DNA of 64,000 nucleotides from positions 305,851 through 369,850 of the forward strand of contig JBAZXD010000001.1 of assembly GCA_041660025.1 (NCBI GenBank). The letters run 5' to 3'. The position numbers were made by a program, and so were the translations under genes. Under the pieces are notes generated by a model. The model worked only from the letters and a program-made list of their open reading frames with translations. It was not told where the DNA came from and did not search any database. Shown here in pieces: positions 26,146 through 59,159 of this stretch. Source of the DNA: Minisyncoccota bacterium (lineage in GTDB: Bacteria > Patescibacteriota > Minisyncoccia > Phycocordibacterales > Phycocordibacteraceae). How positions within the stretch are numbered: position 1 is the stretch's first letter; each line of letters starts with the position of its first letter.

Positions 26146-29100
26146 TTACGGCGTCGTTGTCGTCGCGCTCGCCGTAGTATCGGTCGTAGCGGTTGTGTCC
26201 GTTGTGGCGGCGGTAGTATCAGTCGTTGTCGTAGTTGTGTCGGCTGTAATGGTTGTATCCGTTGTCGTGGTGGCTGTGTCGGTCGTTACGATAGTCGTAT
26301 CGGTCGTCGTTGTAGTCGTGTCTGTCGGCGGAGTGGTAGTAGCTGTGTCGGTCGTAGTGGTCGCGGTAGTTGAGTCGGTCGTCAATGAGACGTCCGTAAT
26401 GGTAATGGTCGCGTCCACCAAGGTCGTCGACGTGGCTATCGGGGTGATTGATATATCCGTGGTGGATGCCGTTCCCGAAGTGCCCGTCGCCTGAGTGTTC
26501 ACGAATGCCAAGAGCGCCTTCACATCGTCCTTGGTGAGACACTGGTCATCCACACAGATCTTCTCGCTTGCGCGGAATGTCTTTGCAAAGAGGTCTCCGA
26601 TGCCGTTGCTCGCATTCGCGAACCAGCTCGTTATCTGCTCGGTGGAAGAGGCGATTGATATCATCGGCGACCCGCTTGCGCTGCTCACTGCCCCGCTCTC
26701 AAGGGCGGCTACACGGTCCTCAAGCGAGGTCATACGGGTGGTAAGAGCCTCTACCTTGGCGACCAGGGCCTGGGTGGCGGCGAGGTTGAAGGTGGCGAGC
26801 TTGTAGAGGTCCACGCCCAGCCCATCCGGGGAGAGGATTTCGGGGGCGATGGTAGCCGCATCTTCTGCGATGAAGCCCAGGCGGAGTGGGTCCTGCTGGT
26901 CCTCTATTGTATAGCGATAGGTGGCGACCTTGAGATTCACGAGTTGGTCGAGCATATCGTCGGTGGAGGAAGCGTTGAGATAATTGATGTCGGTCTTGGC
27001 CGAGCGGGTGGAAGTGTTGATGAAGCCGGTGGCGCCGATGTCCCCTGCGACCGTGAGGGTGTGGTTCGGGGTGGAAGTGCCGATGCCGATGTTTCCGGAA
27101 GCATCAATCGTGAGTACGGTCGTGGTGCCGAAATTGTTTTGGATAAATGCGGTCGTGAAAGCAATTTCCTGGATGGCCGAAGTCAAAACGGGGACAAATT
27201 TCTCATAATTAAGAGTGTAGTACCCGTCCGGTCCCATCGTCACTGTTTCCGGAAACAGCGGCAATACTTGTTGTGCGATAAAACCGAGTTGGGTTGACGT
27301 TGAAATTGCGAACGTCGGATGCTGGTCATAATAGAGCTGGTTCCATGTGTGGGTTATCGGCTGTATCTGCATAATGCGTGCAAGAGTGGAGCCTAACGGC
27401 TGTATATTCGTCTTTAATCTCTCATCAGATGCCTGGCTCATACACCAAGAATACTGGGTGCTGCAAATGTTTCCGGCCATCGTTAGAAGGCCGCCCATAG
27501 TCATATCAAAGAGATCCGCCGGAGCCGACCAGCCACCGATGCGGAAGACGTTGTCGGAATCAAGCCCCATATTGACGGCGTAGGCTCCAGCGCGATGGAA
27601 GCTCATCGTCGCGCCACTTCCATTATTGGAATATGCCACAAGGGTCTGACATCCTGCACAAGCAGTATCGTTATTAGAAATAAAATTGTTTCCAGCACTC
27701 CATGTTCCCGTCAAGGCGCTGACATTTGTCGCAGTTCCCCCGTTTGCCGGCGCGCTTCCGGCAGTATTGGCATAGCTCACGCTGAAGTTGGATGGGTTCC
27801 ATACATAGTAATTTGAGCCGTCGTTTGAGCCCCAGAGCCACGACGGCTGGCCTCCCTGCCCGCTCCAGTTAAACGGTTTACTTGAAACATTGCCCCACGC
27901 AACGCTATTCGCCGCCCCAGCAGTTAAGCTCGCCGCCGTTCCCGAGAGACCCGCGCCAGAACCATTGAATTGAGAAGCGGAGACAGCACCTGTTGCGGAG
28001 ATAGTGCCTGCCGATGAGACAGTATTAAAATGGCTGTCATTGTTTAGGTCAATATAGTAAGTGGTACTGCTATCAAGGTCATACATATACCGAGAACGAA
28101 GGCTTCCATCCGTCTGCGTGATAAACCCGCCTTGGGCGCTTAGAGTACCGGCAGCCGCGACGGTGCCAGTGAAACTCGCAGCACTTGAAATCGTCTGGCC
28201 GTTGATAGTGCTTGCCGCATTTATAGTACCGGCGCTGTTTATGACGATGTTGCCGTTCGCCGATGAGATGCCGGTGTCGCTCATATACATCGAGCCCGTG
28301 CCGGTGCGGAGCGTCCCCTTCACCCACAGGTTGCTCGCGAAGGTAGAGGTGGCGTTTGTGCCCGTGCCGTTCACATCGATGAAGCCCGCGAAAGTTGAAG
28401 TCGCGCTTTCCGAGGTAGCGGTGAAGTACGGGGCTGAGATTGAAGAAGTGGCAGTGAACCCACTCGCGGTGATGGTGCCGTCGAAGACTGCGTCCCCTGC
28501 GACGGAGAGTTTCGCATACGGACTCGTCGTCCCGATACCGACGTTGCCATTTGATAAAATTTTAACCTGGCTAGTAGAGTTATTAGCCGACAAATCAATA
28601 CCGCCTACTGCGTTTGTGGCAATAGCATAAGAACCGTTTGTGTCAAAATAACGGTCAAGCCCTGTGTAACCAACTTTATTAATGCCATTAATTTGGCCAT
28701 CTGAACGGAAAACCGCCACATAATTTGCTGAATTATTATTCGCTACAGCAAAAACCCTGGCCACTGCGGGCGCGTTTGTAGAGTTAGTTTCTATGTCAAG
28801 TTGATACTGCGGACTCGTCGTCCCGATGCCGACGTTGCCGGTTGTTGTGATGTTCCCTGCGTTGTCTAGTCTCAGTCTCTCTGCTGTTGATGATGCGTCG
28901 TAGAACCTTAATCCGCCGGCAGAATCGGCTCCGGCAATATTTGAAATTTGCCAGAAATGCGCATTGGCTCCTGAATTGTTTAATGACACGGAAAAATCAC
29001 CTGTGTCCGCGAAGGTTGCCGTTCTGGCGCTTAAAAGTCCACCTGAATCAATTGACGCAACAACTGAATCGTTACTGTTTTTCCATTGGGTCAAGTTTGC

Positions 29101-32100
29101 TGTCTGTCCGGCAAAGCCTCTCACTATTAGACCAATATCGGAAACCGCGCCGGAGTTTATTTGTAATTTTGCCCCCGGATTCGCCGTCCCAATCCCCACA
29201 TTCCCGCCGTTCGTGACGATGAAGTTTGTGGCGGTGGAACTCCCGACGACGAATGCGGGGCCCGTGATGCCATTCGGATTCACGCTCAACTGCCCCCACG
29301 GGCTCGTCGTCCCGATGCCGACGTTGCCTTGAGCATCAACAACAGACAAAGCCACATTGCTGCTATTTTGCCATTCAGTCAAATTGGCTGTTTGGGATGC
29401 CGCTGCCCGAACAACAAATGTTTTTACGCCCGTACCACCACTTGTTATAAGAACCCCCGGATTAGTGCCGATGTCACCACGGGGTTCAAAACGAATAGAA
29501 GTTCCATATTCTGTAATAGGAACACTGAGTTTTATATTGCTTGTATGTACACCAAACTGAGGAGAAGAGGCAAGTGACGCATTCGGTGCCCAAAGGCCTA
29601 GAACATTCCATGTCGATCCCTGAATACCTACATAAGCAGTCGTGCCGTCTGTCGTCTTTATGGCCAACTGCCCCGCACTAGTACCCGCGACTGTCCCTGA
29701 CGACAGGGTAAGCAAATTGGTCGGCGCTGCCGTCCCAATCCCCACATTCCCCCCGTTCGTCACAATGAAGTTGGTGGCGGTAGAGGAACCGACGACGAAT
29801 GCGGGGCCCGTGATGCCGTTCGGGTTCACGCTCAACTGTCCCCACGGACTCGTCGTCCCGATGCCGACGTTGCCTTGAATTATCATTCCGTCTGTCGGCG
29901 CGGCAATAGCAGCATATGTGCTACCGATGCTCACGTTACCAGTCACGCCAAAACGACTTCCAAAAGTAGTACCATTGCCAACAATTACCTTTTGGTTGGC
30001 AGTATCATAGCTCATAAAGTAATCAGCACCGTTCCCCAACACTCCTATCTTCCCTACATCTCTTTGTGTGTAATTAAAGTAGGTACTGGCGTCAATATAT
30101 AATAGCTGACCGGTAGATTTTACCCAGCCAGCGATATTCAATTTGTAACCCGCGGGGTCTATCGTCCCAATCCCCACATTCCCCCCGTTTGTCACGATGA
30201 AGTTCGTGGCGGTGGACGAGCCAACAACGAAGGCTGGGCCCGTGATGCCGTTCGGATTCACGCTCAACTGCCCCCACGGGCTCGTCGTCCCGATGCCGAC
30301 GTTGCCGTTATTTAGAATCCTCATCGCTTCCGTCGCGCCGTTGTTCCCCGTCTGGAATATTATATCTGCACCAGTTGTTCCTACTCCACTGGTAGAACGC
30401 AAGGTTAATGGAGTAGCTACTCCATTCCCACCGTAGTAAATACTTCCACCAGTACTTAAAGTAGCTAATACTCCAGAACCCACTTGTAAGGTGATGGGAT
30501 TGTTCACACTATAAAGTTGCATTCCACTTGATGCTCCACCACTAATTGCACTATAAGAACCAAAATAGCCAATGGTAGTTCCAGCTCTTGAAAAGGTCAT
30601 ACTAGGCCCTGTACTACTATTACTCCCGCCATCTATGGTGATGGTTGGAGAACTGGCTATTGCTCCATTCCCAACAGTAAGCAATGTTCCCGGACTCGCC
30701 GTCCCAATCCCCACATTCCCCCCGTTTGTCACGATGAAGTTCGTGGCGGTGGAACTTCCGACGACGAAGGCGGGGCCGGTGATGCCGTTTGGATTCACGC
30801 TCAACTGCCCCCACGGGCTCGTCGTCCCGATGCCGACGTTCGCCCCGTTCCCAAGTATCAAGCTGTTTGATGCGGTAACCTGGGCATTATAGCCAATTGC
30901 GGTGGCGTTGGTCAGATTATTGGTTGAGCCGTTGCCGGCATCGTAACCGATGAAAGTATTATTACTTCCCGTCGTGTTGGAAATTCCGGCTCTCATGCCA
31001 AGAGCAGTATTACCTGTGCCGGTTGTATTACCTCCTAATGCGTTCCAACCAAGCCCCGAGTTCCGTTCTCCGACTCCGGTCGTTAGACTAAGCGCGCTTG
31101 CGCCGACGGCAGTATTATAATTAGCGGTCGTATTCGCCTGCAATGCCGAATTGCCAATTGCAGTATTCTCGCCTCCGCTTGTATTGTATCTTAAGGAACT
31201 AACACCTACTGCCGTATTTGTGGATCCTCCTGCATTACTTTGAAGAGCAACATATCCTATGGCTATATTGGAGTAACCGGTTGTAACGCCAGGTAGAGCA
31301 TAATTACCCAAAGCAATATTTTGTCCTATGCCGGAAGTTGTTAAATTACCGCTAGGAGAACCGATAAAAATATTTTCCGTTCCGGTCTTGTGAATGAAAG
31401 TTGCACCGTTAAATTGGTATGTTGAAGTCGCGTTTACATTAGAAGCAACAATATCCCCGACAACCGAGAGTTTCGCGTACGGACTCGTCGTCCCGATGCC
31501 GACGTTGCCGGAAGCTGAAATACGCATTTTTTCGGAGAGGGACTGAAGTGTAGTCCCTGACGAGCCTGCGTCTGACGTTGAGAATGTAAGAGCTCCTCCC
31601 TCTGCGTTGCCGGTAGCTTTTCCTCCAGCCAAGGTAACACTTGCGCCGGCAATATTTGTACCTGACCCACCTGTCCCGTTAAGAACAAATCCCGAAGGGG
31701 TCGCGCTAATAATCCCTTTCCCAAAATAAGCCGTCGTAATGGCTTGAGTTGAGTCGTCGGCGCCAACGACAAGGGTATTCGCAACATTTGATAATGAACC
31801 CTGCCCGATAGCTATAGCTCCGAGGGCGGTTGCGCTCGCGCTCTGACCTAAAGCAAGAGCCCTTTCGGCAGACGCGACCGAACTTCCTCCAACGGCCGTT
31901 GACAAAGCACCGCTGGCGGATGTGTTGTGGCCAATTGCTGTAGAAATACTGTTAGCGGCTGATGCGTTGTAACCAAATGCAACACTGCTCCCCCCACTGG
32001 CGCTGGCCCCTCTGCCTATAGCAGTACTTAAGCTGGCCGATACTGATGCTCCGTGCCCAACAGCCAAGCTGTCTGCGGAAGTGCCTGTTGTTGATAAGTA

Positions 32101-34137
32101 ACCAACAGCCATTGACCTGTCTCCATTTGCAATGGAACCAAAACCAAACTTTTCACTTTGAGAACCGGAGCCCGGACTCGTGATGTTGCCCGTCACAATC
32201 GCGGCTCCAGCCACAGACAGCAAGTTGTATGGCGAGGTCGTCCCCACCCCCACATTCCCGCTGCCGGTCACCGTGAAGAATGTCGTGGCCGACGAAGAGG
32301 AAGAAATGCGGAATACGTCGCCGGTCTGTCCGGCGACGCTCTGGAGGGTGAGGGTGGTGTTGGTGGTGGAAGCAGAGGCGTCCTGGATGAAGAGCGGGTG
32401 ATTGAATTCGAAGCGCTTGGCGGATTCAGCCGAGTTCCAGGTGAGGAGGGCGTTCGGGGATATGGTGCCTCGCTCAAAGGAGAGATACGCGTTCTCGGTG
32501 TCGGCAGTGGCGTTGTCGGAGTTGATGTTGAAGGTCTCGGCGGTGAGGTTGCCTCCCGTGAGGGTGCCGACGATGGTGGAGGCGTTCACTTCGTTCGCGT
32601 AGATCTTGTCGAAGCGGACGGCGGGGGTGCCGATGTCCACCGTGTCGTCGAGGGCCTGGATGTTGCCGATGATGGTGTTAGAGCCGATGCGGAGGGTGCC
32701 GGCTGATGCGGTGATGTCGTGGTTGCCGGAGCCTGTGAAGGTGATACCGGAGCCTGTGCCGGTGAGGTACGCTCCAGTGCTTCCTCCCACCGAGAAGTTC
32801 CCGGAGAAGGAAGAAGTGGCTGAGGAGTCGGTCGCCATGAAGTTCTGCCCCACGACCTGTCCAGCAATGGAGAGGAGCGAGTACGGACTTGTGGTGCCGA
32901 TGCCGATGTACCCGGTTGTGGAGTCGACGACGAGCTTGTCGGTGCCGACCGTGAGCCCGCCGGCGAAGGTACTCGTGGCGGTGGTGGAGGTGGCAACGAA
33001 GTGTGGTGCGGTGGCGCTCTGGTATGAGGTGAGGGCGCCGGTGGCGATGAGAGAGCCGGAGGTGAAATCGTCGGCGGTGAGGGTATCGAAGGCGCCGCTC
33101 GTGGCAGAGACGCTGGTGCCGTTCGTGAGCGCGCCACCGTCGAAGGTGCCGCCCCTGAAGTCGCCGTTTCGTACGATGAGGTCAGAGAGGTCTTCGATCA
33201 TATTGACCTGCTGGATGGTGGTGACGTTGGTGGCCACCTGGCTCGCAACGGGCTGGATGAGGCTCGAGACCCGCGTGAGGAGCTCGGTGCGGAGCGAGGT
33301 GAGGGACTGGTTGACGAAGTCTTCGGAGACGCCACGGACGATGGTGGAGTAGTAGTTGGTGGGGTTGAGGGTGGTAACGACACGGGTGACGGCAGGAGGA
33401 GTGATGCTTGCCCTGTTGGGTGCGGAACTATCTGATGGGGGGGCGACGGGGAATGCTGGCTCGCTGGTCACAAGCTGAGATTCATCGAACGGCATCGTGG
33501 CCGGTAGTGGATTAGAGACAACGGCGAGGGGCGATGGCTCGTTAAAGATCCCTGCGAGCACATCTTGGGTACGAGAGAAAAGGCCGTTGATAGTTTCGTA
33601 CGTAGCAAGCGCCACCTGTTCCCCGAATGAAAGCGTGGGCTGAGCGGCGGCAACTGCCGCGATTTGTTTCTCGTTATTCGTGAGATGTGGAACGATTGTA
33701 GATTGCGCCGCGACTATTCCCAGCACGACGATGAATGTTGCGACAGAGAATGCGAATACATTGGTGCGCAATGATGCGCTCCAAATATCGAACCGCGACG
33801 CCGAGTGGTGTGAGAGCGAACGGGACAGTTCCGACGGGAGTTGCTGTTGAAGTGGTTTTGTCAGAGCCTTTACCGTGCGACGTACTGGAGGACGGTGCGA
33901 ATGGTATTCAGCCGCGTGGACGCGGGAACGGATCTGCGAAAGTTCTTCCTTGCGTTCCGCCTGCAGGTCAAGGAAGCGGATGAGCGAGTTGCGTTTGATC
34001 ATCCACACCTTGCCAACCTGAACTCCTTCGACTTCGCCGGACCGCGCAAGACGTCGGAGATAGCTCGAAGTATATCCGGAAAGTTTTCCAGCGTACCGAG
34101 TCGTTATCAGATCTTTTTTATATAAATTCGATTTCAT
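26146..34137 (-). CDS. Giant (2663 aa) membrane-anchored surface protein of phage-tail-fibre type. N-terminal HTH, one TM helix, long GNVGIGTTSP-type repeat region, two tandem S74-like intramolecular chaperone/autoprotease modules, coiled coil, Thr-rich tail
   Basis: Single uninterrupted ORF. The N-terminus carries an excisionase/MerR-like HTH (LSGYTSSYLRRLARSGEVEGVQVGKVWMI). A TM helix (FAFSVATFIVVLGIVAA) follows. More than 10 copies of the GxVGIGTTSP(W/Y)xxLxV tail-fibre motif are present. The SDERLKTNI and SAKTDINYL segments, each followed by a GFIAQQ/GFIAED block, resemble peptidase S74. The C-terminus is a TDTT low-complexity tail. Confidence 0.85.
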   Translation of the reverse strand: MKSNLYKKDLITTRYAGKLSGYTSSYLRRLARSGEVEGVQVGKVWMIKRNSLIRFLDLQAERKEELSQIRSRVHAAEYHSHRPPVRRTVKALTKPLQQQLPSELSRSLSHHSASRFDIWSASLRTNVFAFSVATFIVVLGIVAAQSTIVPHLTNNEKQIAAVAAAQPTLSFGEQVALATYETINGLFSRTQDVLAGIFNEPSPLAVVSNPLPATMPFDESQLVTSEPAFPVAPPSDSSAPNRASITPPAVTRVVTTLNPTNYYSTIVRGVSEDFVNQSLTSLRTELLTRVSSLIQPVASQVATNVTTIQQVNMIEDLSDLIVRNGDFRGGTFDGGALTNGTSVSATSGAFDTLTADDFTSGSLIATGALTSYQSATAPHFVATSTTATSTFAGGLTVGTDKLVVDSTTGYIGIGTTSPYSLLSIAGQVVGQNFMATDSSATSSFSGNFSVGGSTGAYLTGTGSGITFTGSGNHDITASAGTLRIGSNTIIGNIQALDDTVDIGTPAVRFDKIYANEVNASTIVGTLTGGNLTAETFNINSDNATADTENAYLSFERGTISPNALLTWNSAESAKRFEFNHPLFIQDASASTTNTTLTLQSVAGQTGDVFRISSSSSATTFFTVTGSGNVGVGTTSPYNLLSVAGAAIVTGNITSPGSGSQSEKFGFGSIANGDRSMAVGYLSTTGTSADSLAVGHGASVSASLSTAIGRGASASGGSSVAFGYNASAANSISTAIGHNTSASGALSTAVGGSSVASAERALALGQSASATALGAIAIGQGSLSNVANTLVVGADDSTQAITTAYFGKGIISATPSGFVLNGTGGSGTNIAGASVTLAGGKATGNAEGGALTFSTSDAGSSGTTLQSLSEKMRISASGNVGIGTTSPYAKLSVVGDIVASNVNATSTYQFNGATFIHKTGTENIFIGSPSGNLTTSGIGQNIALGNYALPGVTTGYSNIAIGYVALQSNAGGSTNTAVGVSSLRYNTSGGENTAIGNSALQANTTANYNTAVGASALSLTTGVGERNSGLGWNALGGNTTGTGNTALGMRAGISNTTGSNNTFIGYDAGNGSTNNLTNATAIGYNAQVTASNSLILGNGANVGIGTTSPWGQLSVNPNGITGPAFVVGSSTATNFIVTNGGNVGIGTASPGTLLTVGNGAIASSPTITIDGGSNSSTGPSMTFSRAGTTIGYFGSYSAISGGASSGMQLYSVNNPITLQVGSGVLATLSTGGSIYYGGNGVATPLTLRSTSGVGTTGADIIFQTGNNGATEAMRILNNGNVGIGTTSPWGQLSVNPNGITGPAFVVGSSTATNFIVTNGGNVGIGTIDPAGYKLNIAGWVKSTGQLLYIDASTYFNYTQRDVGKIGVLGNGADYFMSYDTANQKVIVGNGTTFGSRFGVTGNVSIGSTYAAIAAPTDGMIIQGNVGIGTTSPWGQLSVNPNGITGPAFVVGSSTATNFIVTNGGNVGIGTAAPTNLLTLSSGTVAGTSAGQLAIKTTDGTTAYVGIQGSTWNVLGLWAPNASLASSPQFGVHTSNIKLSVPITEYGTSIRFEPRGDIGTNPGVLITSGGTGVKTFVVRAAASQTANLTEWQNSSNVALSVVDAQGNVGIGTTSPWGQLSVNPNGITGPAFVVGSSTATNFIVTNGGNVGIGTANPGAKLQINSGAVSDIGLIVRGFAGQTANLTQWKNSNDSVVASIDSGGLLSARTATFADTGDFSVSLNNSGANAHFWQISNIAGADSAGGLRFYDASSTAERLRLDNAGNITTTGNVGIGTTSPQYQLDIETNSTNAPAVARVFAVANNNSANYVAVFRSDGQINGINKVGYTGLDRYFDTNGSYAIATNAVGGIDLSANNSTSQVKILSNGNVGIGTTSPYAKLSVAGDAVFDGTITASGFTATSSISAPYFTATSESATSTFAGFIDVNGTGTNATSTFASNLWVKGTLRTGTGSMYMSDTGISSANGNIVINSAGTINAASTINGQTISSAASFTGTVAAAGTLSAQGGFITQTDGSLRSRYMYDLDSSTTYYIDLNNDSHFNTVSSAGTISATGAVSASQFNGSGAGLSGTAASLTAGAANSVAWGNVSSKPFNWSGQGGQPSWLWGSNDGSNYYVWNPSNFSVSYANTAGSAPANGGTATNVSALTGTWSAGNNFISNNDTACAGCQTLVAYSNNGSGATMSFHRAGAYAVNMGLDSDNVFRIGGWSAPADLFDMTMGGLLTMAGNICSTQYSWCMSQASDERLKTNIQPLGSTLARIMQIQPITHTWNQLYYDQHPTFAISTSTQLGFIAQQVLPLFPETVTMGPDGYYTLNYEKFVPVLTSAIQEIAFTTAFIQNNFGTTTVLTIDASGNIGIGTSTPNHTLTVAGDIGATGFINTSTRSAKTDINYLNASSTDDMLDQLVNLKVATYRYTIEDQQDPLRLGFIAEDAATIAPEILSPDGLGVDLYKLATFNLAATQALVAKVEALTTRMTSLEDRVAALESGAVSSASGSPMISIASSTEQITSWFANASNGIGDLFAKTFRASEKICVDDQCLTKDDVKALLAFVNTQATGTSGTASTTDISITPIATSTTLVDATITITDVSLTTDSTTATTTTDTATTTPPTDTTTTTTDTTIVTTDTATTTTDTTITADTTTTTTDTTAATTDTTATTDTTASATTTTP
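26149..26465 (-). repeat. Degenerate tandem repeat encoding a Thr/Asp-rich C-terminal tail
   Basis: DNA shows reiterated gtcgt(a/t)g.. units; protein reads TDTTATTDTT.. for ~105 aa. Confidence 0.6.
29190..30850 (-). repeat. Four near-identical ~140-bp intragenic DNA repeats at ~540-bp spacing, encoding identical 46-aa cassettes
   Basis: Repeated DNA blocks recur at about 29.2-29.33, 29.74-29.88, 30.17-30.30 and 30.70-30.85 kb, e.g. ggactcgtcgtcccgatgccgacgttgcc and attccccccgttcgtcacgatgaagtt.gtggcggtgga. Each encodes GNVGIGTTSPWGQLSVNPNGITGPAFVVGSSTATNFIVTNGGNVGIGT. Confidence 0.8.
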
Positions 34138-56764: not shown

Positions 56765-57058
56765 ATGAAATCCATCGGCGAGATGCTCCCCGAGTTCGAG
56801 AAGAAAAGGGCGGAGGCGCCCAAAGGGAGAAAGCGCCAGACCGAGCGCGGCGAAATGATGCGCTTCTTCCTCCGTCATTTGAATTATTCCCGCAAGCAGG
56901 ACGGTCTCGCGCCGATGACGATGGCGCATCTCGGTACCGTCCTTGAGCAGATACCGACACAAGATTTGTATTATTTAAAAAGTGTCTGCAGTCAGGCCAA
57001 AAATTTCGGCAAGAAATTCTGGTGGGAACTCGACCCGACCAAGCACCCTCCCCGCTGA
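56765..57058 (+). CDS. Hypothetical protein
   Basis: 97 aa, start 3 nt after the murA stop; basic; no recognised family. Confidence 0.45.
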   Translation: MKSIGEMLPEFEKKRAEAPKGRKRQTERGEMMRFFLRHLNYSRKQDGLAPMTMAHLGTVLEQIPTQDLYYLKSVCSQAKNFGKKFWWELDPTKHPPR

Positions 57059-57079: not shown

Positions 57080-58426
57080 ATGAAAGAGATTGTGCAAGAT
57101 GGTGCACCGGTGCTCCGCGAGGTCGCAAGCCCCGTGCCGGAAGAGCTCTTCGGGACGCCGGAACTCGCTCAGATTATCGCCGATATGACCGAGGCGCTCG
57201 ACCGCGAGCTCGAGGGCGTGGCGCTCGCCGCGCCGCAGATCGGCGTTTCCTATCGCATCTTCATCGTGCGGAAGGACCGCACGATAGACGTACATCGTGA
57301 TGAGTCGCATAAACTTTCTTCGCCGAAAGAGTTGGCACCCGAGGTTGAGGTATATATCAATCCTGAAATATTGAAGACCTCGCGGAGGCGTGCGGTGGTG
57401 GACGAGGGCTGTCTCTCAGTCCGCGGCATCTACGGCTCAACCAAGCGGCACGAGCGCGTCACGCTCCGCGCGCGGCGGGTCGACGGTTCCCGCTTCGAGC
57501 GCGGCGGCGGCGGCATAATGGCGCAGATATTCGAGCACGAAACTGACCACCTCAACGGCATCCTCTTCATCGATCATGCTGAACAGCTCATCAGTATCCC
57601 GCGCGGGTCGGCGCATCCGTTCATCTATTTCGGTACGCCACAGGTCGCGAGCGACACACTTGAGATCCTTATCGAACGCGGTTTTCTCCCCTCGCTCGTG
57701 GTCACCTCGCCGGACGCCCCGAAGGGTCGCGGTCTCGCGCTCGCTTCATCAGAGACAAAGGTGTGTGCACTCGCACACGGCATCCCCGTCCTCACCCCCG
57801 AGAAGCTCGATGCCGAAATAATCGCTACTCTCGCCGCACTCGGGGCTGAGTACGCTATCGTCGTCGCCTACGGCAAGATATTCCCCGACGAGCTTATTAA
57901 GGCCTTCCCGCTCGGGGTACTGAACGTCCACTACTCGCTCCTACCGAAGTATCGCGGCGCGACGCCGCTTGAGGCCGCATTGCGCGCGGGCGAGACCGAG
58001 ACCGGAGTCTCGGTCCAGAAGATGGTGCGAGAGCTCGACGCCGGCGACATCATTGCTCAGGAGGCTGTGCCAATCGCTCCCGGCGAGACTGCACGCGAGC
58101 TGCGCCCGCGGCTCATCAAGCTCGGCGCGACGCTCCTCGCCGATACGCTCCCCGCCTATCTTGAAGGCAGTGTCGTCTCCGTTCCCCAGGATGCAGCGCT
58201 CGCTTCGCGCTCAGGGAAGTTGAAGAAGGAGGACGGTCTTCTCGCGCTCGACGCGCCCGCTGAGGAGAATTGGAACAAGTACCGCGCATATGCGGATAGC
58301 ATCGGCACGTATTTCTTTGAAAACGGCAAACGGATGAAGATAACGAGCGCAACATTTAAAAACGGGAAATTCCTCATCGAACGCGTCATCCCCGAAGGCA
58401 AGCGCGAAATTGAGTACAGAAGTTAG
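57080..58426 (+). CDS. def-fmt: Peptide deformylase / methionyl-tRNA formyltransferase fusion protein
   Basis: One 448-aa ORF. Residues 1-~180 carry Def motifs (GVALAAPQIG, EGCLS, QIFEHETDHLNG). Residues ~181-448 carry Fmt motifs (FIYFGTPQVA N-terminus, HYSLLPKYRG, C-terminal beta domain). No stop or start at the junction. Confidence 0.8.
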   Translation: MKEIVQDGAPVLREVASPVPEELFGTPELAQIIADMTEALDRELEGVALAAPQIGVSYRIFIVRKDRTIDVHRDESHKLSSPKELAPEVEVYINPEILKTSRRRAVVDEGCLSVRGIYGSTKRHERVTLRARRVDGSRFERGGGGIMAQIFEHETDHLNGILFIDHAEQLISIPRGSAHPFIYFGTPQVASDTLEILIERGFLPSLVVTSPDAPKGRGLALASSETKVCALAHGIPVLTPEKLDAEIIATLAALGAEYAIVVAYGKIFPDELIKAFPLGVLNVHYSLLPKYRGATPLEAALRAGETETGVSVQKMVRELDAGDIIAQEAVPIAPGETARELRPRLIKLGATLLADTLPAYLEGSVVSVPQDAALASRSGKLKKEDGLLALDAPAEENWNKYRAYADSIGTYFFENGKRMKITSATFKNGKFLIERVIPEGKREIEYRS

Positions 58427-58451
58427 AAGTCAATTTCAAAACGTCCACGAG

Positions 58452-58524
58452 AGCCGGTGCGAAGAAAAACGGTAGTAAGACTTGGCCTAGCGGCCCGGAG
58501 CGCGACCGTTTTTCTTCGTACCGG
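58452..58524 (+). repeat. Structured element copy B: 19-bp stem (one G-U) enclosing the same 35-nt core as at 12341..12375
   Basis: Left arm gccggtgcgaagaaaaacg and right arm cgtttttcttcgtaccggc. The arms differ from copy A but remain complementary; the core is identical. Confidence 0.6.
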
Positions 58525-58546
58525 CGAACGAGTTTTGAAATGATTT

Positions 58547-58909
58547 CTAGCGGCCGAAGCGCAGGATGCGCTTGATCGCCGCGCCGCCGCGCTTCATCAG
58601 CCGTTGCGTGCGGCCGCGCGAGCGCCGTATCTCGGCTTCGAGCTCGCTCCGCACCCTGTCCGCCGCGCTCTCGGGATTCGGCTTTACCGCTTCCGCGTGG
58701 AAGACTTGGTCGTTGATGATGAGCCGCGCGACGAGGCGGCAGGGCTCCGACGAGCGCCCCTCGGGCGGCGCCTCCTCGACCTCTATCTCGAGCAGAGCGC
58801 GGTCGCCCTCCTCTCCGAGCAGGCGGAGCGGTGCCGCGAGCTTCTTCTCGATAAGCGCTTCGGTCTCGGGACTCAGCGTAAACTTTGTCGCCTTGATCGT
58901 AATGTTCAT
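58547..58909 (-). CDS. hpf: Ribosome hibernation promoting factor (HPF/RaiA family)
   Basis: MNITIKATKFTLSPETEALIEKKL matches the S30AE family; start placed at the MNITIK Met. Confidence 0.85.
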   Translation of the reverse strand: MNITIKATKFTLSPETEALIEKKLAAPLRLLGEEGDRALLEIEVEEAPPEGRSSEPCRLVARLIINDQVFHAEAVKPNPESAADRVRSELEAEIRRSRGRTQRLMKRGGAAIKRILRFGR

Positions 58910-58937
58910 AGGAGCGGTATCAGCTGGTAAGCAAAGC

Positions 58938-59159
58938 TTATTCGATACTAACACTTATCATTTTAGCGCGTGAACGGTGTCCTGTCAGGATGCGCACACT
59001 GCCTAATGGCTTTCCGAGGCGCAGGGCAACGAGCTCGCGCACACGCAGATTGGCGCGATTCCCGCTCGCCGGCTCCCGCACCGAGATGAGGAGCGTCTCT
59101 CCCTTCTCTTCGACCTTCTCCTTCTTCGCATCCGGCGTGACGAATATTTTGATATACAC
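58938..59159 (-). CDS. DUF167/YggU-family protein
   Basis: IKIFVTPDAKKEKVEE..LLISVREPASGNRANLRVRELVALRLGKP matches UPF0235. Confidence 0.7.
   Translation of the reverse strand: MYIKIFVTPDAKKEKVEEKGETLLISVREPASGNRANLRVRELVALRLGKPLGSVRILTGHRSRAKMISVSIE

What the first reader, a model, noticed from the sequence alone, without database searches (positions are those of the whole stretch)
57080..58426. Apparent in-frame fusion of peptide deformylase and methionyl-tRNA formyltransferase
def and fmt are classically adjacent, separate genes. Here one 448-aa ORF carries a complete Def (GxGxAAxQ, EGCLS, HExxH = QIFEHETDHLNG) joined without a stop codon, start codon or frame change to a complete Fmt. 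The junction reads ...ISIPRGSAHP|FIYFGTPQVASDTLEILIE... and sits at about nt 57620. The Fmt part continues through the HYSLLPKYRG motif and the C-terminal tRNA-binding domain. A single polypeptide that both formylates Met-tRNAfMet and later removes the formyl group from nascent chains is mechanistically curious, because the activities are opposed and spatially separate. It may reflect genome streamlining.
Basis: seen in the sequence. Interest (0 to 1): 0.7.

Follow-up and report, generated by a model that had tools for sequence, protein, structure and literature searches.

The report
Fused deformylase–formyltransferase gene, real but known
This uncultivated ultra-small bacterium really does make peptide deformylase and methionyl-tRNA formyltransferase as one protein, because a one-base deletion merged two overlapping genes, but the same kind of fusion is already known and shown to work in another bacterium, so it is a modest curiosity.

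Summary
Window 57080-58426 (+) is one 448-aa ORF with a full peptide deformylase (Def, residues 1-170), a 10-residue tether, and a methionyl-tRNA formyltransferase (Fmt, 181-448). All catalytic residues are present.

It is not an assembly artefact. The same junction recurs, with sequence drift, in independent assemblies (P0002 at 85% identity, P0003 at 78%), and more than 100 protein clusters from Kaiserbacteria/Paceibacterota (Patescibacteria) are fused.

It is not lineage-wide either. Of 78 informative species-level relatives, 18 are fused. The other 60 keep separate def and fmt genes that usually overlap by 17 nt in different frames. In every fused gene examined the junction has shifted from 1 to 0 (mod 3), by one lost base in the window. 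In the window this erased the fmt start codon and bypassed the def stop codon. The fused state is scattered on trees, which suggests repeated fusion or exchange of fused alleles.

Both halves are under purifying selection. The predicted structure shows two independent modules on a flexible tether.

A Def-Fmt fusion is already published for Exiguobacterium and complements an E. coli def-fmt deletion. Dozens of other unrelated fused clusters exist. The two activities act on different substrates, so there is no paradox.

Verdict: new member of a known kind, low-to-moderate interest.

The parts
57080..58426 (+). Single CDS encoding the 448-aa Def-Fmt fusion protein (stop codon TAG at 58424-58426)
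   Evidence: ORF listing. Pfam and NCBIfam find both families in one polypeptide. Identical protein P0001 is on a 387-kb contig named Candidatus Paceibacterota bacterium.
57080..57589 (+). Peptide deformylase module (residues 1-170). Motif I is G46-VALAAP-Q53, motif II is E109-GCLS-113, motif III is H153-ETD-H157. There is a low-confidence insertion at residues 71-83.
   Evidence: Pfam PF01327 scores 136 bits. It aligns with E. coli Def at 37% identity. Q53, C111, H153, E154 and H157 are invariant in 85 fused homologs. The fold matches human mitochondrial PDF 3g5k, TM 0.81. The model ends in a short beta-strand at 168-172, with no long C-terminal helix.
57590..57619 (+). Tether and junction (residues 171-180, ISIPRGSAHP). 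It corresponds to the former def/fmt overlap. Relative to split relatives one nucleotide is missing, the fmt ATG is GCG and the def TAA is TCC.
   Evidence: DNA junction alignment: 105 nt from HExxH to GTP in the window and L002, against 106 nt in split relatives. Every split junction examined is 1 mod 3 and every fused one 0 mod 3. Linker pLDDT is about 62. Linker columns vary between homologs.
57620..58165 (+). Fmt N-terminal catalytic (formyltransferase) domain, residues 181-362. It contains FGTP at 184-187, the tRNA-recognition loop SPDAPKGRG at 210-218, N282-V-H284-YSLLPKYRG and D320.
   Evidence: Pfam PF00551 scores 129 bits. It is 35% identical to E. coli Fmt, with Asn/His/Asp aligned. 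N282, H284 and D320 are invariant.
58166..58423 (+). Fmt inter-domain linker (KLKKED, residues 380-385) and shortened C-terminal beta-domain (residues 363-448)
   Evidence: Pfam PF02911 scores 24.8 bits against a cutoff of 21.1, covering profile positions 1-51 of 100. The model superposes on whole Fmt structures 4iqf, 5uai, 2fmt and 1fmt with TM 0.77-0.80 normalised to target. Stand-alone Fmt of split relatives has the same short length.
58424..58550 (.). Long, nearly perfect hairpin between the fusion gene and the convergent hpf-like gene. It is probably a bidirectional terminator (inferred).
   Evidence: MFE -65.9 kcal/mol, z = -8.98 against shuffles. The arms occur only here in the window. 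Strongly folding downstream regions are common in relatives.

Best explanation
The ORF encodes a genuine bifunctional protein. An N-terminal metal-dependent peptide deformylase is joined by a flexible tether of about 10 residues to a C-terminal 10-formyl-tetrahydrofolate-dependent methionyl-tRNA formyltransferase.

Origin. In the Kaiserbacteria/Paceibacterota lineage, def and fmt are ancestrally separate genes. The fmt ATG usually lies 17 nt before the end of the def stop codon, in the +1 frame. A one-nucleotide deletion inside this overlap put Def into the fmt frame. The def stop was bypassed and the fmt start codon became dispensable, and both have since mutated away. Nothing was lost from either enzyme: 178 aa plus 278 aa, minus about 6 overlap codons, gives about 448 aa.

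How it works (inferred). The two modules fold and act independently on their own substrates. The Fmt module formylates Met-tRNAfMet before initiation. The Def module removes the formyl group from nascent chains at the ribosome exit. The fusion enforces 1:1 co-expression, which the overlapping (presumably translationally coupled) genes already approximated. It also makes any truncating mutation in def abolish Fmt as well. That combination is tolerated, whereas loss of Def alone is lethal.

Because any frame-restoring indel in the short overlap produces an intact fusion, the event is mutationally easy. It has probably happened more than once in this lineage, and many times across bacteria.
For: Shown:
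- One uninterrupted ORF carries both families.
- All catalytic residues are present and invariant in 85 fused homologs.
- All 119 other listed homologs (67-85% identity) are full-length fusions from NCBI, JGI, ENA and Logan assemblies.
- The nearest relatives, P0002 (SRR22388049) and P0003 (identical in JGI 3300037424 and SRR12684511), share the junction with substitutions.
- Sixty species-level relatives have split genes, most with the fmt ATG at the -17 position, and most def stops are TAA.
- Junction length is 105 nt fused against 106 nt split, with ATG changed to GCG and TAA changed to TCC.
- There is no internal start codon for Fmt.
- dN/dS is 0.07-0.18 in both halves between fused pairs.
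- The AF2 model has pLDDT 87, pTM 0.59 and a low-confidence linker, indicating two independent modules.
- Each half matches its solved fold.
- The more divergent relatives (L071-L076) are all split, so split is the ancestral state.
- The Exiguobacterium Def-Fmt fusion complements E. coli delta def-fmt (PMC12690207).

Inferred: independent action of the two modules, the stoichiometry and mutational-safeguard benefit, and translational coupling in split relatives.
Against: - No enzymatic or expression data exist for this protein.
- Motif I has Gly changed to Ala. TIGR00460 (198.5 against 201.5) and TIGR00079 (103.4 against 103.95) fall just under their equivalog cut-offs.
- The Fmt C-domain is about 40 aa shorter than characterised Fmt enzymes.
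- Only 64 kb of the genome was searched for a second def or fmt. Whether the fusion is the sole source of either activity is unknown.
- dS values are near saturation, so dN/dS is approximate.
- Read-level data could not be inspected.
Confidence: 0.85

Rival explanations
1. The fusion is a sequencing or assembly frameshift error in this contig. The organism really has separate, overlapping def and fmt genes like most of its relatives.
For: Sixty of 78 informative related species have split genes that differ from the fused form by a single base in junction length. By flanking MurA, the window's nearest genomes (L043 88%, L027 87%) are split. Read data could not be inspected.
Against: The same fused junction is present in diverged proteins from independent samples and assemblers (P0002 at 85%, P0003 at 78%, P0008, P0012). 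In the window the fmt ATG is GCG and the def TAA is TCC. There is no in-frame start codon for Fmt. Adding one base back would leave fmt without a start codon.
Confidence: 0.02
2. The fused ORF is real, but only one half is enzymatically active. For example, the Def half could be a degenerate or structural module, with a second stand-alone Def elsewhere in the genome, as in Exiguobacterium, which keeps a second PDF.
For: Motif I deviates (Gly to Ala) and motif III has Glu instead of Gln. Exiguobacterium genomes with the fusion all carry a second PDF. Only 64 kb of this genome could be searched.
Against: The same motif variants occur in the stand-alone Def of 59 split relatives. Metal ligands, the catalytic Glu and Gln53 are invariant. 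dN/dS of the Def half is 0.08-0.18, similar to the Fmt half. No second def or fmt lies within the window.
Confidence: 0.07
3. The fusion is made as one chain but is processed into separate Def and Fmt proteins, so the cell functionally still has two enzymes.
For: The tether is flexible and low-confidence and its sequence is variable. It could therefore be accessible to proteases.
Against: The linker has no conserved cleavage motif. Its length ranges widely among fusions, from a few residues to more than 40 in other lineages. The Exiguobacterium fusion works in E. coli, where no dedicated processing system would be expected (the absence of processing there is my inference).
Confidence: 0.05

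Closest known systems
Def-Fmt fusion of Exiguobacterium (Bacillales), e.g. WP_021067074.1, 461 aa, UniRef 'Multifunctional fusion protein'; described in Mol Biol Evol 2025, PMC12690207
   Same: Same architecture and order (N-terminal Pep_deformylase, C-terminal Formyl_trans_N plus Formyl_trans_C) in one ORF with a short linker. The catalytic motifs of both halves are intact. The published fusion complements E. coli delta def-fmt, so the architecture is compatible with both activities.
   Different: Only 39% identical to the window protein, with an unrelated linker (...DKLAVPDKGTDQRIVFMGTP...). It lies in a different phylum. Split relatives at 55-78% identity sit between the two, so the fusions arose independently. 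Exiguobacterium keeps a second PDF; whether this organism does is unknown. The window's Fmt C-domain is shorter.
Canonical def-fmt operon (E. coli and many bacteria) and the overlapping def/fmt gene pair of split Kaiserbacteria relatives
   Same: Same two enzymes, same gene order, and the same conserved neighbourhood (murA-like, small ORF, def, fmt, then convergent hpf-like, DUF167, glutaredoxin). Protein identity to split relatives is up to 78%.
   Different: Two polypeptides, each with its own start and stop. In the split relatives fmt usually starts 17 nt before the end of the def stop codon, in another frame. The window lacks one base, the fmt ATG and the def stop.
Other, unnamed Def-Fmt fusion clusters in public (meta)genomes, including a Firmicutes/Candidatus Fermentithermobacillaceae cluster (P0169/P0281, 482-485 aa)
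   Same: Same two-family architecture. Thirty-seven of the 149 other 50%-identity representatives listed (P0121-P0269) are such fusions.
   Different: Only 32-42% identical to the window protein. Linkers range from about 5 residues to long low-complexity spacers, which indicates separate fusion events. Their taxonomy is mostly unknown.

Membership tests
Peptide deformylase (PF01327; NCBIfam NF001159 / TIGR00079) | Profile score above the curated cut-off | tested here: met
   Pfam 136.1 bits against 22.8. NF001159 131.1 against 125. TIGR00079 is marginally below, 103.4 against 103.95.
Peptide deformylase (PF01327; NCBIfam NF001159 / TIGR00079) | Metal ligands Cys (EGCLS) and two His (HExxH), plus the catalytic Glu | tested here: met
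   C111, H153, E154 and H157 are present and invariant in 85 homologs.
Peptide deformylase (PF01327; NCBIfam NF001159 / TIGR00079) | Motif I G-phi-G-phi-A-A-x-Q (updated form phi-G-phi-A-A-x-Q) | tested here: inconclusive
   The window has G46-V-A48-L-A-A-P-Q53. Gln is present but the conserved Gly is Ala. The same variant occurs in all 59 split and 18 fused relatives examined. PMC12690207 notes that exact motif conservation is not required for activity.
Peptide deformylase (PF01327; NCBIfam NF001159 / TIGR00079) | PDF fold | tested here: met
   The model's Def half matches human mitochondrial PDF 3g5k_A with TM 0.81 normalised to target. Sequence hits to many PDF structures.
Peptide deformylase (PF01327; NCBIfam NF001159 / TIGR00079) | Deformylase activity on N-formyl-Met peptides | not testable with these tools
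   Requires an enzyme assay or complementation.
Methionyl-tRNA formyltransferase (TIGR00460; PF00551 + PF02911) | Profile scores above the curated cut-offs | tested here: inconclusive
   Pfam N-domain 129.3 against 26.1 and C-domain 24.8 against 21.1 are both met. The equivalog model TIGR00460 scores 198.5 against 201.5, just below, covering profile positions 4-250 of 315.
Methionyl-tRNA formyltransferase (TIGR00460; PF00551 + PF02911) | Catalytic Asn-His-Asp triad and the SLLP..RG motif | tested here: met
   N282, H284 and D320 align with the E. coli INVHGSLLPRWRG and LDTGD segments. They are invariant in 85 homologs.
Methionyl-tRNA formyltransferase (TIGR00460; PF00551 + PF02911) | Insertion loop in the N-domain that recognises initiator tRNA (E. 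coli QPDRPAGRG) | tested here: met
   The window's SPDAPKGRG (210-218) aligns with it. D212 and G218 are invariant; P211, G216 and R217 are at least 90% conserved. Its role in tRNA recognition is from established knowledge of E. coli Fmt.
Methionyl-tRNA formyltransferase (TIGR00460; PF00551 + PF02911) | C-terminal beta-barrel tRNA-binding domain | tested here: inconclusive
   Present but about 40 residues shorter than E. coli. The model still superposes on whole Fmt structures, including the tRNA complex 2fmt (TM 0.77-0.80). Stand-alone Fmt of relatives has the same short form.
Methionyl-tRNA formyltransferase (TIGR00460; PF00551 + PF02911) | Formylation of Met-tRNAfMet | not testable with these tools
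   Requires an assay or complementation.
Def-Fmt 'multifunctional fusion protein' (Exiguobacterium type) | Def and Fmt domains in one uninterrupted ORF, Def N-terminal | tested here: met
Def-Fmt 'multifunctional fusion protein' (Exiguobacterium type) | Common descent with the Exiguobacterium fusion (same fusion event) | tested here: not met
   39% identity and an unrelated linker. Relatives at 55-78% identity have unfused genes. The fusion is therefore analogous, not orthologous.
Def-Fmt 'multifunctional fusion protein' (Exiguobacterium type) | [quoted passage not shown] | not testable with these tools
   Done for Exiguobacterium alkaliphilum only (PMC12690207).

The most novel reading that the evidence does not exclude
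In these ultra-small Patescibacteria the fusion may be the only Def and the only Fmt in the cell, and it may be positively selected rather than neutral. Two forms of advantage are possible. It could act as a genetic safeguard, because any truncating mutation in def automatically removes Fmt and so converts a lethal lesion into a viable one. Or it could physically bring the formyltransferase to translating ribosomes through the Def module, localising the whole formylation cycle. Repeated independent fusion from a 17-nt overlapping gene pair would then be a natural replicated experiment in how overlapping genes become multidomain proteins.
Probability: 0.15. Interest if true: 0.5.

Novelty: new member of a known kind. 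Interest (0 to 1): 0.3.

Why it matters
This documents that Def-Fmt fusions are much more common than the single published case suggests. That case was four Exiguobacterium reference genomes out of 5,042. Here there are more than 100 fused protein clusters in Kaiserbacteria/Paceibacterota and dozens of unrelated fused clusters elsewhere.

It also gives a clean, base-level account of how such a fusion arises: a frame-restoring indel in a 17-nt overlap between two co-translated genes, one lost base in the window.

Practically, annotation pipelines name these proteins inconsistently as either 'peptide deformylase' or 'methionyl-tRNA formyltransferase'. Gene-presence surveys of CPR genomes could therefore wrongly score one of the two as missing.

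It does not change our understanding of translation initiation.

Tried and rejected
- Single-gene (Def+Fmt) NJ tree with 186 taxa. The backbone support was about 0-0.04, so it could not be used to count origins.
- L079, a 39%-identity 'Nomurabacteria' locus that looked like a distant fusion. It contains a masked N-run and a frame break inside def, so it is uninformative.
- Literature searches for the fusion in CPR/Patescibacteria found nothing specific. PMC7264889 mentions only the operon.
- Naming the distant fused clusters. Most have no source names; only Exiguobacterium and one Firmicutes cluster were identified.
- The promoter and terminator consensus scan around the gene was no better than shuffles.
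- Rfam found only three tRNAs in the window.
- A second def or fmt copy was looked for in the window and none was found.
- Programmed frameshifting and internal initiation were considered and rejected. The ORF is already in frame and has no internal start codon.
- A single origin of all fused alleles followed by reversion was considered unlikely. Most split genomes, including all four nested beside the window on the flank tree (L027, L030, L040, L043), retain the same ATG position 17 nt before the end of the def stop.

Full report
**1. What is in the sequence**

Window 57080..58426 (+) is a single 448-aa ORF with an ATG start and no internal stop.
- Pfam places Pep_deformylase on residues 1-169 (E 1e-39), Formyl_trans_N on 185-355 (E 2e-37) and Formyl_trans_C on 380-430 (E 2.5e-5, profile positions 1-51 of 100).
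- NCBIfam gives fmt TIGR00460 at 198.5 bits (cut-off 201.5) and peptide deformylase NF001159 at 131.1 bits (cut-off 125).
- No second def or fmt lies in the 64-kb window.

**2. Functional completeness**

Against E. coli Def (sequence recalled from memory, used only as an alignment guide) the N-terminal half is 37% identical. It carries Q53, C111 (EGCLS) and H153-E154-x-x-H157.

Against E. coli Fmt the C-terminal half is 35% identical over residues 181-425.
- N282 and H284 lie in NVHYSLLPKYRG.
- D320 is present.
- The loop SPDAPKGRG aligns with the E. coli tRNA-recognition loop.

All of these catalytic residues are invariant in an alignment of 85 fused homologs.

Two deviations exist. Motif I reads GVALAAPQ (Gly to Ala) and motif III reads EHExDH (Gln to Glu). 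Both are lineage traits, found equally in the stand-alone Def of split relatives. The 2025 PDF survey notes that exact motif conservation is not required for activity.

The Fmt C-terminal domain is about 40 residues shorter than in E. coli. The stand-alone Fmt of relatives is just as short (median 278 aa; for example P0121 at 288 aa).

**3. Not an artefact**

Searching 5.8 billion proteins returned the window's own protein (P0001, 100%) and 119 other listed hits. All 119 are full-length Def-Fmt fusions of 438-490 aa at 67-85% identity. They come from NCBI, JGI, ENA and Logan assemblies and are named Kaiserbacteria, Paceibacterota or Patescibacteria.

The window's own junction recurs with substitutions:
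- P0002 (85% identity): IRIPRGSEHSFVYFGTP
- P0003 (78% identity): IRIPRGSTHPFVFFGTP

P0002 comes from run SRR22388049. P0003 was recovered identically from JGI metagenome 3300037424 and from SRR12684511, with the same gene neighbourhood.

In the window there is no in-frame ATG/GTG/TTG between M147 (inside Def) and V207 (beyond the essential FGTP strand-loop of Fmt). Even a hypothetical missing base would leave fmt without a start codon.

**4. Not lineage-wide, and how the fusion arose**

I scanned one genome per species in GTDB and kept 80 loci.
- Eighteen are fused in frame (L001-L017, plus L054, which is cut by a contig end).
- Sixty have Def and Fmt in different frames.
- L077 (a contig-end fragment from the same MAG as L054) and L079 (masked) are uninformative.

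In the split genomes the fmt ATG typically lies 17 nt before the end of the def stop codon, which is mostly TAA. For example, in L020 Def ends ...HIQHAPTA* and Fmt begins MHQPHKFAFFGTP.

From the HExxH codons to the Fmt GTP codons, every split junction examined has a length of 1 mod 3 (106, 112 or 133 nt). Every fused one is 0 mod 3 (105 nt in the window and L002, 129 nt in L013). Compared with its split relative L027, the window has lost one base, ATG has become GCG and TAA has become TCC.

Stand-alone Def (median 178 aa) plus Fmt (median 278 aa), minus the overlap, equals the fused length. The fusion is therefore an end-to-end join with nothing deleted. The more divergent relatives (L071-L076) are all split, so split is the ancestral state.

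**5. One origin or several?**

The Def+Fmt gene tree is unresolved. The neighbourhood is syntenic in fused and split genomes: murA-like, a small conserved ORF, def/fmt, then convergent hpf-like, DUF167 and glutaredoxin genes.

- A concatenated tree of 1,026 columns needed at least 4 state changes in all 300 bootstraps. A second run that added L082 and L083 needed at least 5.
- A tree built from flanking genes only needed at least 6.
- The flank tree places the window in a 0.99-supported clade with four split genomes (L027, L043, L030, L040) and one fused genome (L002).
- MurA identity to the window is highest for split L043 (88%) and L027 (87%). Def and Fmt identity is highest for fused L081/P0002 (92% and 82%).
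- L013 is fused with a distinct, longer linker that still contains the fmt Met (HAMSHTPKHEF), and it nests in a split clade (support 0.86). It is a singleton, however.

My reading is that there were several independent frame-restoring indels, or lateral exchange of fused alleles among related genomes. Reversion to the exact ancestral ATG and TAA positions is unlikely. The number of events is not settled. Identities sit in a narrow 70-80% band (a star-like radiation) and only NJ trees were available.

**6. Selection and structure**

Between fused pairs, dN/dS is 0.07-0.18 for the Def half and 0.07-0.13 for the Fmt half, and somewhat higher in the linker. dS is near saturation, so these values are approximate.

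AlphaFold2 on the 85-sequence alignment gives mean pLDDT 87.4 but pTM 0.59. The linker block 171-180 has pLDDT about 62, and a disordered insertion lies at residues 71-83. This indicates two well-folded modules without a fixed mutual orientation.

Foldseek matches the Fmt half to full-length Fmt structures (4iqf, 5uai, 2fmt, 1fmt; TM 0.77-0.80 normalised to target). It matches the Def half to human mitochondrial PDF 3g5k (TM 0.81). No PDB chain spans both halves.

The Def module ends in a short beta-strand rather than the long C-terminal helix that anchors E. coli Def to the ribosome (the E. coli role is from established knowledge). That may be why a C-terminal appendage is tolerated (inference).

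**7. Comparison with what is known**

A def-fmt fusion has been published for the four Exiguobacterium reference genomes. [quoted passage not shown]

That protein is in my result set as P0145 (461 aa, WP_021067074.1; UniRef 'Multifunctional fusion protein'). It is 39% identical to the window protein and has an unrelated linker. The exhaustive search of 1.84 billion cluster representatives shows that 37 of the 149 other representatives listed are Def-Fmt fusions. Their linkers are very heterogeneous, and one cluster is from Firmicutes/Fermentithermobacillaceae.

I found no paper describing the fusion in Patescibacteria.

The window protein therefore works like the Exiguobacterium fusion, but it comes from a separate fusion event.

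**8. Interpretation**

The two activities are not in conflict. Fmt acts on Met-tRNAfMet and Def acts on nascent peptides. These are consecutive steps of one cycle, and the genes are co-localised in 58% of bacterial species. The fusion is a classic merger of operon neighbours, made mutationally easy here by the pre-existing gene overlap. Streamlining explains the overlap, not the fusion, which saves one base.

Possible benefits, both inferred and untested, are fixed 1:1 stoichiometry and automatic loss of Fmt whenever def is truncated.

**Verdict.** The feature is real. It is a new member of a known kind and of low-to-moderate interest.

Noticed in passing
window 58424-58550: The spacer between the fusion gene and the convergent hpf-like gene is a nested, nearly perfect inverted repeat. 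It folds into one long hairpin (MFE -65.9 kcal/mol, z = -9.0). The arms occur nowhere else in the window. Strongly folding sequences also follow fmt in many relatives: median MFE -43 kcal/mol for 130 nt across 76 loci, with no shuffle control run for those loci. It is probably a bidirectional terminator, but it is unusually long.
   Followed up: partly
window about 56765-57058 (+): A small ORF of about 97-100 aa lies between the murA-like gene and def. It is conserved at 80-94% identity in most related loci, fused or split, but has no Pfam match. Its function is unknown, and its position immediately upstream of def/fmt is fixed.
   Followed up: partly
window 26146-34137 (-): A giant 2,663-aa ORF has Peptidase_S74 (endosialidase-chaperone, tail-fibre-like) domains near residue 2237 and a weak YadA-head repeat hit. 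This looks like the large surface or adhesin-type proteins often seen in ultra-small bacteria. It was not examined further.
   Followed up: no
window 58547-58954 (-) and loci L017, L018, L025, L028, L029, L035, L039, L047, L048, L059, L060, L065, L070: The hpf-like (Ribosomal_S30AE) gene downstream of fmt comes in two very different versions among otherwise syntenic relatives. One is about 70-88% identical to the window's and the other only 36-42%. This suggests replacement by a divergent allele or paralog at a fixed position.
   Followed up: no
loci L018-L078 and L080 (split relatives); junction equivalent to window 57600-57620: In the split relatives def and fmt overlap by a conserved 17 nt, with the fmt ATG inside the last codons of def in the +1 frame. 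This is an unusually long and well-conserved overlap. It implies translational coupling and constrains the last five Def residues and the first five Fmt residues at the same time.
   Followed up: partly
protein database entries P0001, P0018, P0088, P0097 versus P0004, P0009, P0043 and others: Public annotation of these fused proteins is inconsistent. Some are named only 'peptide deformylase' and others only 'methionyl-tRNA formyltransferase'. Presence/absence surveys based on names could score one of the two functions as missing in these genomes.
   Followed up: no
locus L036 (6532-6720) and loci L032, L037, L047, L078, L080: Some split relatives carry extra sequence between the def stop and the conserved start of Fmt. 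L036 has a gap of about 190 nt, and the others have N-terminal Fmt extensions of 10-25 residues. The junction is therefore a hotspot for indels in general, not only for the fusion-causing one.
   Followed up: no
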